From the IMG/VR virus record IMGVR_UViG_3300027365_000007: DNA of 64,000 bases; one strand, written 5' to 3'. Of the stretch, positions 59,059-62,772 are shown one piece after another. Positions within the stretch are counted from its first letter, which is position 1. Every line of letters starts with the position of its first letter. This DNA is from a virus. Lineage: Duplodnaviria > Caudoviricetes. The position numbers were made by a program, and so were the translations under genes. The notes under the pieces are model-generated. The model ran no database searches. It was not told the DNA's origin and saw only the letters and a list, made by a program, of their open reading frames with translations.

Positions 59059-59080
59059 TGCTTATACCCTTGTTTATTGA

Positions 59081-59100
59081 TATTTATACAAGGATAAATA
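59081..59100. promoter_or_regulatory. Back-to-back late promoters (TATAAATA minus 59081-59088; GATAAATA plus 59093-59100)
   Basis: Both motifs lie in a 65-nt divergent intergenic gap. Confidence 0.55.
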
Positions 59101-59123
59101 TTACTACATCAAAAGAGGTGAGT

Positions 59124-59852
59124 ATGACAACAAACAAAAATGAATTCAAAGTCAATACAAAATATGTACCGAAATTGAAGCCTGAAAACAAAGAGCAATC
59201 GAAGGCACTACAACACTTGGAGTCAGATGTTCCATATAATTTTCTTGTCGGACCTGCTGGATCTGGTAAGACCCTTTTCGCCACTGTATATGCCATTAAA
59301 AAATTTCTAGACGGTACATACCGTAAAATCGTAATTACCAGACCAGCCGTATCGGTTGACGAAGATCACGGTTTCCTTCCGGGGGACATTACAGCCAAAA
59401 TGCATCCTTGGATGCTTCCTATAATCGACGTATTCATGGAGTTTTTTGATGCAGATACCCTTGAAAGTATGATCAAGGAAGGTGTATTGGAAATTGCCCC
59501 TCTTGCCTACATGCGTGGTCGTAACTTAGGTGCTATCATGATAGATGAGAATAGCGACAAGCGCGGATTTATCGTATTAGCAGATGAGATACAAAACTCC
59601 ACTCCTGAACAAATGAAAATGCTACTGACTCGTCTTGGTAAAAATAGTAAGATGATCATCACGGGTGATTTAACCCAACATGATCGTGGGATGGACAATA
59701 ACGGTCTTCTAGATGCTTACAATCGACTTACCAAAAATTATGTAAGTGACGAATACATATCAATTGACAAATTCAGTAAGAAAAGTGTTGTGCGCAGTGA
59801 TGCTGTACAAAATATACTCAATTTATACCCAGAAGATGAGAGTGATGTATAA
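59124..59852 (+). CDS. phoH: PhoH-family ATPase (start re-called at 59124)
   Basis: GPAGSGKT, ITRPAV, GFLPGD, PLAYMRGR, ADEIQN and ITGDLTQHD motifs; GAGG SD. Confidence 0.95.
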   Translation: MTTNKNEFKVNTKYVPKLKPENKEQSKALQHLESDVPYNFLVGPAGSGKTLFATVYAIKKFLDGTYRKIVITRPAVSVDEDHGFLPGDITAKMHPWMLPIIDVFMEFFDADTLESMIKEGVLEIAPLAYMRGRNLGAIMIDENSDKRGFIVLADEIQNSTPEQMKMLLTRLGKNSKMIITGDLTQHDRGMDNNGLLDAYNRLTKNYVSDEYISIDKFSKKSVVRSDAVQNILNLYPEDESDV

Positions 59853-59930
59853 AAATTAACTTATAATTATTATTCGTTGGATATTATATAAATAATAGTA
59901 ACAATATACACAACGTAGGAGATATATGTT

Positions 59931-60143
59931 ATGACGCATGAAGAAAAATTTACATCACTACTTGGTTCACTGAGCGGTTCTGAGCAAGCATTTATGATCA
60001 ATATTCCGAGCGACATTGGGAACCCTATCAAGATGCTTTCACGCAACATCCCTGAAGGTGCTAAAGTGAAAATTGACGGCAGTGTAATGTATGTTAAAGC
60101 ACCTAGCTTTAGTCATACTGACGCAATTCTACTTCAAGTGTAA
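59931..60143 (+). CDS. Small late protein
   Basis: TATAAATA at 59887-59894, AGGAG SD, terminator downstream. Confidence 0.65.
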   Translation: MTHEEKFTSLLGSLSGSEQAFMINIPSDIGNPIKMLSRNIPEGAKVKIDGSVMYVKAPSFSHTDAILLQV

Positions 60144-60167
60144 CTAAGTACAGTAAATTGTATAACG

Positions 60168-60197
60168 AAAAAGAGAGGCATATGCCTCTCTTTTTTA
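60168..60197. terminator. Bidirectional terminator
   Basis: AAAAAGAGAGGCA/TGCCTCTCTTTTT inverted repeat between convergent genes. Confidence 0.8.
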
Positions 60198-61625
60198 TAC
60201 TGCCATAGGTGGTCTTTTGGCTTTCATAGGTTCTTTATTAACCTCTAGGCCAACAATATCAATATCTTCCCATTTCAAACCAATGACATCATCAATAGTA
60301 TTAAAATCTTTATTGATAACTAACTCTCCCGGTTTTCCTAGATCACGTTCAACAATTTCCTTTGCAAACTCAAGCTGATTCTCATATATATGAACATCGG
60401 TTAAATCACAAGACATATATCCAACGTTCATGTTCGCCAATTTTGCCATGCATATTAGATACAATGCGTATTGCTGACGTGCAAAGGATTCGCCGAATAC
60501 TACATCCAGACTTCGGTTCATAACTTTTAAATTAAGTGTCATAGAACCATCTTTTTCAGGAATGCATACAAATTGATGTGAATGCCAACAAGGCGTGAGT
60601 GCCATTTCTTTACTCTGCGATGGATTCCAGAAAGTAGTTAACATTCTTCGACTGTAAGGATTGTTAAGCAGGGTGTCACTGGTTTCTATAAGTTGATCGA
60701 CACCTTGGGTGTTTTTTTGTCTAGAAACCAAACGATATCCATTCCGCGTTATATTTTTGTCTATGTTTTTTTCAGACCATAAATCATAAAAGTTTTTTGG
60801 ATCAAAATTCATCTGTTTTGCAAATTTGACCGCATTATCAAATGTGTGAACTTCACCTGTTTCGACATCTTCGACGGTTATAGTATAGTTTTCTGGATGA
60901 TTTTGTGAATCGGTAATCCACATACAGTTTTCTATAGAATATTCAAATCCATTACCAATAATATCCTTATCCAAGACGTATCGGGTATGAGGATTGGCAA
61001 TCTTATCCTTCCAGCCCGGTATTTTTTTCACATCTTCTGAAAACTTCTTAAATTCAAGCCAATCATTACACACAGACACACCTTTTGCACCATATAAATG
61101 ATAACTACTTGAATCTCTGCGATAACAACGATCTATCATTCCCATCCATGTGGACTTTAGTGGATCATGCTCACTACCGTATCCATTTGCAATACCCAAA
61201 TACGTCGCACTAAGCCCTTCTTTTAGTCTTGGTTCAGGTTGAGTTATACTATCGTATTGACCATTAAAATTTCTCCACGCAAACCCATACGCTTTACCCA
61301 TTTCACCCTCACCAAGATAGTTTAGGTTTCGGTTATCTAGAAATTCACGACTAGTATTACCTTTCCAGAAGCCAACGCCTTTATCCTCAAGTAATTTGGT
61401 TTGAGTTTGTCCATGCATAAAGAACCAAAATTCTTCAAATGCAAGCCTTAATGGCGCTGATCTAAAAGTAGAAAACGGAAATTGCTTTCCTACATTCCAA
61501 ACTAGTTTACGGTCAAAGACCTTATAGCATCCAACACCCGTTCTATCAGGTGTTTTAACCCCATTTTCCAAAACATCTTTGATAAGGTTGATGTAACCTT
61601 GCTCATCATAGTATACTACTGACAT
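60195..61625 (-). CDS. thyA: Thymidylate synthase with an in-frame homing-endonuclease insertion
   Basis: PDRTGVG, EEFWF, YGFAWR, GVDQL, RRM...WNP, ALTPC, RSLDV and DVHIYENQ motifs; ~180-aa insert between YGFAWRNFNG and GVDQL. Confidence 0.9.
   Translation of the reverse strand: MSVVYYDEQGYINLIKDVLENGVKTPDRTGVGCYKVFDRKLVWNVGKQFPFSTFRSAPLRLAFEEFWFFMHGQTQTKLLEDKGVGFWKGNTSREFLDNRNLNYLGEGEMGKAYGFAWRNFNGQYDSITQPEPRLKEGLSATYLGIANGYGSEHDPLKSTWMGMIDRCYRRDSSSYHLYGAKGVSVCNDWLEFKKFSEDVKKIPGWKDKIANPHTRYVLDKDIIGNGFEYSIENCMWITDSQNHPENYTITVEDVETGEVHTFDNAVKFAKQMNFDPKNFYDLWSEKNIDKNITRNGYRLVSRQKNTQGVDQLIETSDTLLNNPYSRRMLTTFWNPSQSKEMALTPCWHSHQFVCIPEKDGSMTLNLKVMNRSLDVVFGESFARQQYALYLICMAKLANMNVGYMSCDLTDVHIYENQLEFAKEIVERDLGKPGELVINKDFNTIDDVIGLKWEDIDIVGLEVNKEPMKAKRPPMAV
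60711..61250 (-). mobile_element. His-Me-finger homing endonuclease domain plus C-terminal HTH, fused inside ThyA (boundaries approximate)
   Basis: W.GMIDRCY...Y.LYG.KGV.VC..W..F..F...LDKD...YS.ENC.W, followed by an IENR1/NUMOD1-like TGEVHTF.NAV.FA segment. Confidence 0.8.
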
Positions 61626-61641
61626 ATTAACCTCTTTTTAC

Positions 61642-61671
61642 TTGCAATTTGATTAAGAATTATGTTAACAT
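61642..61671 (+). promoter_or_regulatory. Candidate sigma70 promoter (TTGCAA-N18-TAACAT, extended TG)
   Basis: Divergent intergenic region upstream of the HD-kinase gene. Confidence 0.4.
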
Positions 61672-61695
61672 AGAATGGTTATAAGGAAAGGTCTT

Positions 61696-62772
61696 ATGTA
61701 CAAAAATATTTTTATAAATTGGTTTGAAAATGTATTCTCTGGTGAAGCGTTCCGCGATGACATGGTGGATACTGTCGAAGATTCTCCATATCATCGTGAA
61801 GACAACGTTTGGGTCCATACAGAAATGGTAGTTGACGCATACATTCGTTTGTCACCTGCTACATGGTCCAAAAAAGATCTCATGGGCGCATTGATGTGTG
61901 CATTTCATGATGTTGGCAAGCCTGCGAGTGAAGAAGTGAAACAGCGTGATAACGGTACTGAATATCGTCGCTACAATAACCACGACACTGTATCAGGTAA
62001 TATGTTTATTGATTATTATCTTCAGAATAAAGACCAACAGGTATTTTCTGACTTGAACTCTACCGACATTTATAACATTTGGGTTATGATTGCATATCAC
62101 ATGCCGTATAAGATTAAGCAAAAGCGCCTTGATAATCTCTCATACCATATGAATAAATTCGGACTTGTCAGTGTGTTTACCCGTGCGGTATATGCTGATG
62201 CAAAAGGCCGTATTAGTGATGATGAAGAGAAAACACTAAAGTCATCGAGTAAGTGGTGTGAGCGGTTCAACAAGATGTACGTTGAACATCCAGTGCGTAA
62301 CGATTCCAAGACTGTTATTGTTTTGTGTGGATGTTCTGGTATTGGTAAAAGTACTCTCTCTGAAAAGTTGATGAAATCATACAGCAATGAAAGCATTGTT
62401 TATCATTCTATGGATGACCTTCGCCTCAAGTGGTACTCGGATGATTATCGCGTTGCGTTTGAAAAAGCGTCACAAGATTCAGATTTCGGTAATAAAGTCA
62501 CTAGTGACTTTATGCATAAGCTGAAAGTCAATGACATTGTACTTGTAGACAATACTAATCTAACTTACAAGCGCCGTAACCAGTACTTGAACAACAATAA
62601 AAATACTGTTAGAATTGCATATGTTCTAGTCGCATCCTTTGACGAAGTTCTAAACCGTCAATCTAAGCGAACTGATAAAGAAATTGGTTATAAATCGATT
62701 GAACGTATGTACTATTCTCATCGCCCTGTTATCTACGGGGAAGTTGATGAGGTGAAACTAGTAGGATTCTAA
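61696..62772 (+). CDS. HD-domain plus P-loop polynucleotide-kinase-like fusion (start re-called at 61696)
   Basis: HREDNVWVHT, FHDVGKP and NHD (HD domain); GCSGIGKS and VDNTNL (kinase). Confidence 0.85.
   Translation: MYKNIFINWFENVFSGEAFRDDMVDTVEDSPYHREDNVWVHTEMVVDAYIRLSPATWSKKDLMGALMCAFHDVGKPASEEVKQRDNGTEYRRYNNHDTVSGNMFIDYYLQNKDQQVFSDLNSTDIYNIWVMIAYHMPYKIKQKRLDNLSYHMNKFGLVSVFTRAVYADAKGRISDDEEKTLKSSSKWCERFNKMYVEHPVRNDSKTVIVLCGCSGIGKSTLSEKLMKSYSNESIVYHSMDDLRLKWYSDDYRVAFEKASQDSDFGNKVTSDFMHKLKVNDIVLVDNTNLTYKRRNQYLNNNKNTVRIAYVLVASFDEVLNRQSKRTDKEIGYKSIERMYYSHRPVIYGEVDEVKLVGF

What the first reader, a model, noticed from the sequence alone, without database searches (positions are those of the whole stretch)
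60711..61250. Homing endonuclease fused in frame inside thymidylate synthase with neither intein nor intron
Seen: a ~180-aa insert with His-Me-finger and HTH motifs lies between YGFAWRNFNG and GVDQL. There is no stop, no Cys/Ser...His-Asn splice junctions and no spare non-coding sequence for a ribozyme core. Known: this position is the variable surface region of TS that tolerates insertions, and phage td genes are classic homing targets via introns or free-standing genes. Inference: a splicing-free homing strategy in which the nuclease persists as a passenger domain of a bifunctional enzyme.
Basis: partly seen in the sequence, partly recalled or inferred. Interest (0 to 1): 0.7.

Follow-up and report, generated by a model that had tools for sequence, protein, structure and literature searches.

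The report
Unspliced homing-nuclease module inside phage ThyA
A marine jumbo-phage thymidylate-synthase gene carries, in frame in a surface loop and with no intron or intein to remove it, a complete homing-endonuclease-like module that is under selection and has moved between related genes, so a selfish gene appears to survive inside an enzyme by being tolerated, not spliced out.

Summary
ORF 60195..61625 (-) encodes a 476-aa ThyA-family protein. Its fold is interrupted between YGFAWRNFNGQY and DQL by 185 in-frame codons (60699..61253).

The insert is a homing-endonuclease-type module. Its core is a divergent HNH-like domain of the IPA-HNH family (it matches ICP1 gp59 and gp209), with LD-K-D where canonical enzymes have D-H. 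An I-HmuI-like HTH domain follows.

- No intron signal, no unusual RNA structure, no Hint domain and no conserved splice junctions were found; positive controls for intron and intein detection worked.
- The insert evolves under strong purifying selection (dN/dS 0.05).
- It is absent from syntenic relatives about 80% identical, and its presence needs at least 3 gains or losses on the ThyA tree.
- It shares history with about 35 upstream codons across ThyA subclades (Fisher p 1.5e-5), a co-conversion signature.
- 63 of the 149 nearest module clusters are ThyA genes with the same in-frame module, at two different loops. They include cultured Bacillus and Tenacibaculum phages.

Best reading (0.62): a splicing-free, in-frame homing element. 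Nuclease activity is unproven because the family lacks the catalytic His.

This scan has already reported the same phenomenon on at least seven other genomes. The nearest published precedent I found is the ShiLan domain.

The parts
60195..61625 (-). Whole fused gene: 476-aa ThyA-family protein with an internal homing-endonuclease-like module (stop codon 60195..60197)
   Evidence: Single ORF. PF00303 matches in two stretches, E 6.6e-57. AF2 model has pLDDT 94.6 and pTM 0.90.
61254..61625 (-). ThyA N-terminal part, aa 1-124 (DRTG Arg28, Glu65, Trp87, Tyr113 of YGFAWR)
   Evidence: Aligns to PDB TS chains at query 8-127. These residues are invariant in alignment A1. dN/dS against L003 is 0.013.
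61254..61358 (-). About 35 codons of upstream flank (aa 90-124) that travel with the insert; co-conversion-like tract including the F114/A115/N120 signature
   Evidence: In this tract, allele L006+ shares 21 sites only with insert-bearing alleles and 8 only with its own insert-free kin. Elsewhere the counts are 47 and 114. Fisher p 1.5e-5.
60699..61253 (-). In-frame insert, 185 codons (aa 125-309): the mobile module
   Evidence: Absent from alleles L004, L005, L007, L009 and L010 at 74-83% aa identity. dN/dS 0.05 against L003. phrog_2081 'HNH endonuclease' E 2e-34.
61203..61235 (-). Conserved N-terminal linker of ThyA-embedded modules (QPxPxLxxG, aa 131-141)
   Evidence: Recurs in many ThyA-embedded copies from unrelated ThyA clades.
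60888..61157 (-). IPA-HNH-type, His-less HNH-like core (aa 157-246): W160..M163..R166-C167-Y168, Y175, Y178-G179, G182, W189, F195, D198, L218-D219-K220-D221, Y229, C234, W236, N242
   Evidence: Column conservation is 80-100% in 150 homologues. The profile hits ICP1 ORF59 (E 4.6e-24) and ORF209 (E 1.9e-11). Weak fold match to PacI: Z 4.1, rmsd 3.5, 80 aligned.
60711..60893 (-). I-HmuI NUMOD-like beta-hairpin plus helix-turn-helix DNA-binding domain (aa 245-305)
   Evidence: Profile A3 against 1U3E residues 108-171, E 1e-6. VIA-align Z 5.3, rmsd 2.2, 55 aligned. PF22083 is present in 14 of 86 free-standing relatives.
60198..60698 (-). ThyA C-terminal part, aa 310-476 (DQL helix, Arg326/Arg327, catalytic Cys346, Arg371-Ser372, Asp374, Ala382 in place of Asn177, His412, Tyr414)
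   Evidence: PDB alignment at query 307-460. These columns are invariant in A1. The predicted homodimer interface uses these residues.

Best explanation
The insert is a homing-endonuclease gene that has lost its own start, stop and any splicing vehicle. It sits in frame in the loop-coding stretch between two conserved ThyA motifs (YGxQWR and DQL..P.SRR).

It is translated as an internal, independently folded domain of the ThyA-family enzyme. The module has an IPA-HNH-type HNH-like core followed by an I-HmuI-like HTH.

Inferred mechanism: during co-infection the fusion protein recognises and nicks or cuts insert-free ThyA alleles of related phages near this loop. Recombinational repair from the insert-bearing allele then copies the 555-nt insert together with roughly 100 nt of upstream exon.

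The loop is permissive and the two domains fold separately, so the enzyme is expected to keep working and no RNA or protein splicing is needed.

Shown here: the in-frame architecture, absence of splicing signatures, purifying selection, presence/absence polymorphism, the mosaic flank, and recurrence in many ThyA genes. Inferred: nuclease activity, the target site, and retained enzyme activity.
For: - **Architecture.** A single 476-aa ORF with a split TS match.
- **Conserved frame.** The reading frame is kept in three alleles whose synonymous sites are near saturation, and insert dN/dS is 0.05 (dS 1.13).
- **No intron signal.** No Intron_gpI hit at E<=10. The Romulus DNA-polymerase intron, which holds a homologous lone ORF, gives weak hits of 17.7 bits. 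RNA folding z is -0.77.
- **No intein.** No Hint or intein signal and unconserved junctions. Pfam does detect real inteins in P0172 and P0178, ThyA proteins that also carry the module.
- **Fold.** AF2 gives both the TS fold and the insert at pLDDT about 94-95.
- **Dimer.** The homodimer model scores ipSAE 0.85 against a best control of 0.00. That mark was reached by 20 of 30 proteins solved as pairs and 1 of 23 solved as single chains. The runs agree in at least 71% of contacts and partner pLDDT is at least 83. The interface is made of TS residues only. TS dimers are solved, so this pass may come from memory.
- **Sporadic distribution.** Insert-free syntenic alleles exist at 71-85% identity. 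At least 3 changes are needed on the ThyA tree and are forced by starred branches.
- **Mosaic flank.** The co-conversion-like tract has Fisher p 1.5e-5.
- **Insert closer than host.** Between distant ThyA hosts the insert is 43-51% identical while the ThyA parts are 26-39%.
- **Recurrence.** 63 of 149 nearest module clusters are ThyA-embedded. They sit at two different loops, and include Bacillus phage 015DV002 gp207 and Tenacibaculum phage PTm1 ORF-285.
- **Family context.** Relatives are the lone ORF in the Romulus DNA-polymerase intron, free-standing next to ThyA in Chotacabras, and ICP1 gp59 and gp209, the published IPA-HNH homing-endonuclease genes (PMC10448857).
Against: - The general-base His of the His-Me finger is Lys220 here and is never His in the family. 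No member known to me has been assayed.
- Foldseek found no significant PDB match for the core, and the PacI match is weak at Z 4.1.
- This copy lacks the roughly 70-100-aa N-terminal beta-rich domain present in longer ThyA-embedded and free-standing forms, so it could be a reduced derivative.
- Insert divergence between P0001 and P0003 (68%) is similar to host divergence. Old vertical inheritance with losses is therefore not excluded for this subclade.
- The excess of insert identity over host identity is partly an ascertainment effect, because the hits were chosen by insert similarity.
- All 5 IMG/VR relatives are insert-free, so the element is rare in this lineage.
- There is no transcript or protein evidence.
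Confidence: 0.62

Rival explanations
1. Domesticated or nuclease-dead passenger. The module is a former homing endonuclease that now serves only as a DNA-binding or structural domain of ThyA, for example tethering the enzyme to DNA or the replication complex, or regulating it. Its patchy distribution would come from ordinary homologous recombination between phages, not from self-promoted homing.
For: - The catalytic His is absent from the whole family.
- This copy is reduced, lacking the N-terminal beta domain.
- Purifying selection as strong as on the enzyme itself (dN/dS 0.05) is also expected for a domain useful to the host.
- His-Me domains that lost both the His and the substituting Tyr are known to be DNA binders (PMC5714182).
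Against: - The same His-less domain is the only nuclease-like domain in ORFs that sit in classic homing-endonuclease positions: the Romulus DNA-polymerase intron, next to the ICP1 DNA polymerase, and next to the Chotacabras ThyA.
- The Asp219 and Asn242 equivalents of the I-HmuI metal ligands are conserved, as is a near-invariant Tyr229 in the loop where PacI has its nucleophilic Tyr.
- The flank-plus-insert mosaic and the presence/absence polymorphism among 80%-identical alleles fit homing.
- A useful domain would be expected to be fixed, yet most close relatives lack it.
Confidence: 0.24
2. Cryptic removal. The insert is excised after all, either as an unusual intron whose ORF fills it and happens to be in frame with both exons, or by non-canonical protein splicing or proteolysis.
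For: - P0001 and P0002 have Ser or Thr near the N-junction and Asn-Thr at the C-junction.
- Rfam can miss ORF-bearing introns at its gathering score, as it did for the Romulus intron.
Against: - No Intron_gpI hit even at E<=10, although the control gave hits.
- No excess RNA structure.
- All 555 nt are under codon-level selection with saturated synonymous sites.
- The Asn is Ser in P0003, and junctions are unconserved across about 30 ThyA-embedded copies.
- There is no room for a Hint fold: about 150 of the 185 residues are accounted for by the two nuclease-type domains.
- Real inteins are detected by the same search in P0172 and P0178.
Confidence: 0.06
3. Assembly or annotation artefact (a chimeric contig).
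For: The window is probably a metagenomic phage contig; no genome is held for it.
Against: - The same fused gene appears in the same synteny in independent assemblies from other samples (L003 at 89%, L006 at 72%).
- Equivalent fusions occur in complete genomes of cultured phages.
- GC and GC3 of the insert equal those of the flanks.
Confidence: 0.01

Closest known systems
ShiLan domain of mycobacteriophage DNA methylase genes (Arsenault, Gosselin & Gogarten 2025, PMC11855218; PMC9957025)
   Same: A homing-type insertion inside a phage enzyme gene that is read through in the host frame without stops. It has no detectable intron or intein, is sporadically distributed, and is predicted to loop out of the host fold.
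   Different: In ShiLan the HNH endonuclease is encoded out of frame as a hidden overlapping ORF, and the host-frame product is a featureless hairpin. Here the host-frame product itself is the folded endonuclease-like module, and no alternative-frame ORF exists. The host is ThyA, not a methylase.
IPA-HNH homing endonuclease genes (ICP1 gp59, gp115/116, gp209; Barth, Dunham & Seed 2023, PMC10448857)
   Same: The same divergent HNH-like domain. The insert profile hits ICP1 ORF59 at E 4.6e-24 and ORF209 at E 1.9e-11, with the same W..M..RC and LDKD motifs, and it is invisible to Pfam HNH models.
   Different: The published members are free-standing genes with a C-terminal AP2 domain. This one has no start or stop of its own, lies inside an enzyme, and carries an I-HmuI-type HTH in place of AP2.
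I-HmuI (SPO1 DNA polymerase intron nickase, PDB 1U3E)
   Same: Overall order of an HNH-type core followed by a C-terminal HTH. The C-terminal domain is homologous (E 1e-6; Z 5.3).
   Different: I-HmuI has the canonical Asp74-His75 and is intron-encoded. Here the His position is Lys, the N-terminal beta domain is missing, and there is no intron.
I-TevI / I-BmoI, intron-encoded GIY-YIG endonucleases of T4 td and B. mojavensis thyA (own knowledge; PMC3664794 listed)
   Same: Homing elements that target thymidylate synthase genes.
   Different: They belong to a different nuclease family, live in self-splicing group I introns, and are inserted at a conserved active-site-coding position, not in a variable loop.
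Inteins with in-frame endonuclease domains
   Same: An in-frame endonuclease inside a host protein, sporadically distributed.
   Different: There is no Hint domain and there are no splice junctions. True inteins co-occur with the module, at the catalytic Cys, in P0172 and P0178.
PacI restriction endonuclease (PDB 3M7K/3LDY)
   Same: A His-less beta-beta-alpha-metal nuclease in which a Tyr in the loop between the strands replaces the His (PMC5714182). It gives a weak fold match to the core (Z 4.1, 80 residues), and Tyr229 is 98% conserved in the equivalent loop.
   Different: No sequence homology was shown, the zinc sites are not evident, and the match is within the noise range the tool states.

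Membership tests
ThyA / thymidylate synthase family (PF00303) | TS fold and Pfam match above the gathering score | tested here: met
   PF00303 at 193 bits against a cut-off of 24.3, in two stretches. PDB TS chains match at E 1e-44. The AF2 model is confident.
ThyA / thymidylate synthase family (PF00303) | Catalytic set: Cys146, Arg21, Arg126/127, Arg166, Asp169, His207, Tyr209, Tyr94 (E. coli numbering) | tested here: met
   C346, R28, R326/R327, R371, D374, H412, Y414 and Y113 are all invariant in A1.
ThyA / thymidylate synthase family (PF00303) | Asn177, the dUMP-specificity residue | tested here: not met
   Ala382 aligns with the Asn of PFN in 1qzf. This holds for the whole clade, insert-free members included. 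The substrate (dUMP, dCMP or both) is therefore not settled.
IPA-HNH homing endonuclease genes (PMC10448857) | Divergent HNH-like domain homologous to ICP1 gp59 and gp209 and not found by Pfam HNH_3 | tested here: met
   Profile A3 hits ICP1 ORF59 (E 4.6e-24) and ORF209 (E 1.9e-11). No Pfam hit.
IPA-HNH homing endonuclease genes (PMC10448857) | C-terminal AP2 DNA-binding domain | tested here: not met
   The C-terminal domain matches the I-HmuI HTH instead. No AP2 hit.
IPA-HNH homing endonuclease genes (PMC10448857) | Free-standing gene beside an essential gene | tested here: not met
   The module is embedded in frame, with no start or stop and no SD before internal starts.
Canonical HNH / His-Me finger nucleases (I-HmuI group) | General-base His at the end of beta-1 (the D-H motif) | tested here: not met
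   Lys220. Of 150 family members, 120 have K, 28 have R and none has H.
Canonical HNH / His-Me finger nucleases (I-HmuI group) | Metal-ligand Asp before the His, and Asn/His after beta-2 | tested here: met
   D219 is 94% conserved and N242 is N or Q in 96%. HMMER places the stretch through N242 opposite I-HmuI residues 86-101, which include Asn96, but that alignment piece scores only 0.5 bits.
Canonical HNH / His-Me finger nucleases (I-HmuI group) | Nuclease activity | not testable with these tools
   Needs biochemistry.
Intein | Hint splicing domain (blocks A, B, F, G) | tested here: not met
   No Hint or Intein_splicing hit at E<=1. The same library finds them in P0172 and P0178.
Intein | Conserved Cys/Ser/Thr at residue 1 and (His-)Asn plus Cys/Ser/Thr at the C-junction | tested here: not met
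   KN|T in two alleles but KS|T in P0003, and variable in about 30 other copies.
Group I intron | Ribozyme core detectable by covariance model | tested here: not met
   No RF00028 hit at E<=10 in 59800-62000. The control intron in Romulus gives 17.7 and 12 bits.
Group I intron | Non-coding sequence or structured RNA available for the core | tested here: not met
   All 555 nt are in frame and selected as codons. MFE z is -0.77.
Homing element (functional class) | Sporadic presence among close alleles | tested here: met
   At least 3 changes on the ThyA tree. Insert-free syntenic alleles exist.
Homing element (functional class) | Co-conversion of flanking exon sequence | tested here: met
   The 35 upstream codons share history with the insert, p 1.5e-5.
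Homing element (functional class) | Endonuclease cleaves the empty site | not testable with these tools
   Needs a cleavage assay.
ShiLan-type read-through insertion (PMC11855218) | Insertion read in the host frame, with no intron or intein | tested here: met
ShiLan-type read-through insertion (PMC11855218) | HNH endonuclease encoded in an alternative frame | tested here: not met
   The endonuclease-like module is in the host frame. No alternative-frame ORF of 60 aa or more lies in the insert.

The most novel reading that the evidence does not exclude
In-frame, never-spliced insertion into permissive loops between conserved motifs may be a distinct fourth habitat of homing endonuclease genes, beside introns, inteins and intergenic sites. 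In it, the nuclease has no independent expression and uses the host enzyme as its chassis. Both junctions of the insert lie at the ThyA dimer interface in the model (residues 120-122 and 308-314). The obligate ThyA homodimer could therefore pair two monomeric nickase-type modules and turn nicking into double-strand cleavage of insert-free alleles. That would make the element mechanistically dependent on the quaternary structure of the enzyme it parasitises. The His-less IPA-HNH core would then cut by a PacI-like Tyr (Tyr229) or a Lys220-assisted mechanism.
Probability: 0.2. Interest if true: 0.8.

Novelty: new variant of a known kind. Interest (0 to 1): 0.62.

Why it matters
Homing endonuclease genes are thought to persist inside essential genes only if an intron or intein removes them, or else to sit between genes. 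This case, and the dozens of ThyA genes with the same in-frame module at two loops, would show a third route: tolerance by domain insertion.

- It would add a natural catalogue of permissive insertion sites in a drug-target enzyme.
- It would give a large, uncharacterised His-less HNH family (about 26,000 clusters at E<=0.001) a testable activity.
- It would offer compact DNA-targeting modules that work as internal fusions.
- It warns annotators that over-long 'thymidylate synthase' genes are chimeras.
- The host ThyA clade, with Ala at the Asn177 position, may itself have a non-standard pyrimidine substrate.

Tried and rejected
- **Near-DNA search of phage records:** no match.
- **Rfam at gathering score on five loci:** nothing, not even the probable Romulus intron, so only the E-value mode with its control was used.
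- **Foldseek against the PDB with the module model:** no hit at E<=0.001.
- **Pfam and NCBIfam on the insert:** no family.
- **Whole-genome searches:** no genome is held for the window or for the TARA scaffold, so I could not test whether this is the phage's only ThyA or whether a ThyX exists. Within the 64-kb window there is no second copy of ThyA or of the module.
- **Internal translation start for a separate nuclease:** no Shine-Dalgarno-like motif before any in-frame ATG, GTG or TTG in the insert.
- **Promoter and terminator scan:** at chance level. A small hairpin at the 3' junction (60699..60713) is not conserved in L003 or L006.
- **Compositional foreignness:** none; insert GC is 36.0 against 36.9-37.9 in the flanks.
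- **Intein reading via Ser...Asn|Thr:** considered and rejected.
- **Literature searches** for a published description of HNH modules in frame in ThyA: none found in the held library. The actinophage intein survey concerns ThyX (IPR003669) inteins, not this.
- **Residue-level structural superposition on I-HmuI or PacI:** not possible, because model coordinates are not exposed.
Full report
**What is in the sequence.**
The window is phage DNA: tail fibre proteins, helicases, PhoH and a ClpB-like ATPase. No genome is held for it. Syntenic relatives come from marine metagenomes, including a 461-kb TARA scaffold. The nearest cultured relative of the gene is in the 440-kb Salicola phage SCTP-2.

On the minus strand, 60195..61625 is one 476-aa ORF. 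Pfam Thymidylat_synt (193 bits) and solved TS chains match aa 1-127 and 307-476. Codon alignment with insert-free alleles delimits an insert of exactly 185 codons, aa 125-309 at 60699..61253. It lies between ...YGFAWRNFNGQY and DQL....

**What the insert is.**
PHROG profiles annotated 'HNH endonuclease' match aa 147-292 (phrog_2081, E 2e-34). Pfam and NCBIfam see nothing. An exhaustive HMMER search with the insert found 25,933 cluster representatives at E<=0.001.

The core motif is W..M..RCY, Y..YG.[KR]G.V, W..F..F..D, LD[KR]D, Y....C.W....[NQ], and P0001 has every conserved residue. The position where canonical HNH enzymes have the general-base His is Lys220. Across the family it is K in 80%, R in 19% and never His.

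A profile of the module matches the C-terminal DNA-binding domain of I-HmuI (1U3E) at E 1e-6. HMMER also places the stretch through N242 opposite I-HmuI residues 86-101, which include Asn96, but that piece scores only 0.5 bits.

AlphaFold models are confident: 94.6 for the whole protein and 94.5 for the module. VIA-align gives I-HmuI for residues 245-305 (Z 5.3, rmsd 2.2, 55 aligned). For the core it gives only a weak match to PacI (Z 4.1, rmsd 3.5, 80 aligned). Foldseek finds nothing significant.

PacI is the known His-less member of the superfamily, in which a Tyr in the loop between the strands replaces the His (PMC5714182). Here Tyr229 in the equivalent loop is 98% conserved. This is a lead, not a demonstration.

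Following a lead in earlier notes of this scan, I tested the module profile against Vibrio phage ICP1. It hits ORF59 (E 4.6e-24) and ORF209 (E 1.9e-11). These are two of the genes that Barth, Dunham & Seed named IPA-HNH homing endonuclease genes, and they carry the same LDKD motif.

Free-standing relatives have no other nuclease domain, and 14 of 86 carry the I-HmuI NUMOD-like domain. One relative is the lone ORF between the DNA-polymerase exons of Staphylococcus phage Romulus. Another sits immediately upstream of an intact ThyA in Bacillus phage Chotacabras. By homology and by genomic habit, the insert is a homing-endonuclease-type module.

**Is it removed?**
- *Intron.* No Intron_gpI match at E<=10 across 59800-62000. 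The Romulus intron gives weak hits (17.7 and 12 bits) in the same mode, although not at gathering score. The insert RNA folds no better than shuffles (z -0.77).
- *Coding constraint.* All 555 nt evolve as codons. Against the 89%-identical allele L003, dS is 1.13, dN is 0.057 and omega is 0.05.
- *Intein.* There is no Hint or intein signal. The tempting Ser...Lys-Asn|Thr junction is Lys-Ser|Thr in P0003, and it is unconserved in about 30 other ThyA-embedded copies. The two nuclease-type domains account for most of the 185 residues. As a positive control, P0172 and P0178 are ThyA proteins that carry both this module and a real intein at the catalytic Cys, and Pfam detects that intein clearly.
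- *Separate expression.* No alternative-frame ORF and no Shine-Dalgarno before internal starts.

The simplest reading is one 476-aa polypeptide.

**Is the enzyme likely intact?**
All canonical catalytic residues are present and invariant in the clade. The N-terminal part has omega 0.013.

A homodimer prediction scored ipSAE 0.85 against a best control of 0.00. That mark was reached by 20 of 30 proteins solved as pairs and 1 of 23 solved as single chains. Runs agree in at least 71% of contacts and partner pLDDT is at least 83. The interface is made of TS residues, including Arg326 and Arg327 reaching the partner. TS dimers are solved, so this may reflect memory; it shows only that the insert is not predicted to obstruct the dimer. 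The junction residues 120-122 and 308-314 are at the interface.

One departure applies to the whole clade and is independent of the insert. The Asn177 (E. coli) specificity residue is Ala382, and the sequence after the catalytic Cys is PCW, not PCH.

**Is it mobile?**
- Among the closest homologues, three clusters carry the insert (P0001/P0002, P0003, and the divergent P0065). Eight at 71-85% identity do not. Gene order around them is identical. All five IMG/VR relatives lack it.
- On a ThyA tree built without the insert, its presence needs at least 3 changes forced by well-supported branches. P0001/P0002 are sister to insert-free P0004-6 and P0009, and P0003 nests among insert-free P0007, P0008, P0010 and P0011.
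- The flank is mosaic. Over most of the gene, L006 (P0003) is closest to its insert-free kin L009 and L010. In the roughly 35 codons just upstream of the insert it is closest to the window and L003 (77-82% against 57-68% nt identity). It also shares the protein signature RNL.YLGEGEMGKAYGFAWRNFNG. Site counts are 21:8 in the tract against 47:114 elsewhere (Fisher p 1.5e-5). The window shows the reciprocal pattern. This is what co-conversion during homing leaves behind. It lies upstream only, which suggests a cut site 5' of the insertion point.
- Between distant ThyA hosts the insert is 43-51% identical while the ThyA parts are 26-39%. There is an ascertainment caveat, because the hits were chosen by insert similarity.

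**How general is it?**
63 of the 149 best module clusters are ThyA proteins with the module in frame. At least 33 have it at the same loop, after YGxQWR. At least 5 have it at a second loop before YGxQWR, among them Tenacibaculum phage PTm1 ORF-285. Bacillus phage 015DV002 gp207 has it at the first loop of a canonical (Asn177) ThyA.

These GenBank genes are annotated simply as thymidylate synthase. I found no paper describing them. The closest published concept is the ShiLan domain, a read-through, non-splicing insertion in a mycobacteriophage methylase. Its HNH is hidden in another frame. Earlier reports of this scan describe the same ThyA phenomenon on at least seven other genomes.

**Verdict.**
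The best explanation (0.62) is a splicing-free, in-frame homing element of the IPA-HNH family living in a permissive ThyA loop.

The main rival (0.24) is that the His-less module is a domesticated or dead DNA-binding passenger. Cryptic splicing (0.06) and artefact (0.01) are unlikely.

What remains unshown is nuclease activity, the full-length protein, and enzyme function. All three are ordinary bench tests.

Noticed in passing
window 60195..61625 (-), aa 346-347 and 381-382: The whole ThyA clade, insert-free members included, has Ala where canonical TS has the dUMP-specificity Asn177 (FN to FA). It also has PCW in place of PCH after the catalytic Cys. From memory of the N229/N177 mutagenesis literature, loss of this Asn relaxes discrimination against dCMP, so the enzyme may be a dCMP/dUMP methylase or hydroxymethylase and not a plain TS.
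   Followed up: partly
window 59070..59852 (+) versus L004:7204-8985 and L009:4190-6873: The neighbouring PhoH gene is uninterrupted in the window (about 240-260 aa). In two syntenic relatives whose ThyA lacks the module, PhoH carries a large in-frame LAGLIDADG-containing insertion just after the Walker A region, probably an intein. Different mobile elements occupy different genes in different members of this phage population.
   Followed up: partly
P0172 (871 aa) and P0178 (909 aa), metagenomic ThyA proteins: These ThyA genes carry two selfish elements at once: the unspliced IPA-HNH module in the loop, and a bona fide Hint+LAGLIDADG intein at the catalytic Cys region.
   Followed up: partly
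L017:582-1304 (Bacillus phage Chotacabras gene 46) and 1608-2519 (gene 44): A free-standing homologue of the ThyA-embedded module (29% identity over 229 aa to the 015DV002 insert) lies directly upstream of an uninterrupted ThyA. It is followed by a small separate HTH ORF. This is a possible ancestral or alternative configuration of the same ThyA-targeting lineage.
   Followed up: partly
window 60195..61625 versus L003:3527-4957: Identity to the closest allele falls in steps along the gene: 98% aa / 89% nt in the ThyA N part, 88% / 84% in the insert, and 83% / 77% in the C part. This suggests a recombination breakpoint at or near the element.
   Followed up: no
L008:1-5046 (Staphylococcus phage Romulus DNA polymerase region): The DNA polymerase gene holds an annotated intein. 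Further downstream, a roughly 1.1-kb gap between exon ORFs contains a lone 214-aa IPA-HNH-type ORF, with weak Intron_gpI hits on both sides.
   Followed up: partly
L011:2123-3622: In the contig that carries the divergent ThyA-plus-module protein P0065, a calcineurin-like phosphoesterase gene also contains an in-frame LAGLIDADG domain.
   Followed up: no
P0065 (540 aa), L011:5001-6623: A more distant ThyA of the same clade carries a longer (about 250 aa), highly divergent copy of the module at the same loop. It has an extra N-terminal beta-rich segment like that of free-standing forms and of 015DV002. phmmer with the P0001 insert misses it, but it aligns on the W..[ML]..[RK]CY and IDKD motifs.
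   Followed up: no
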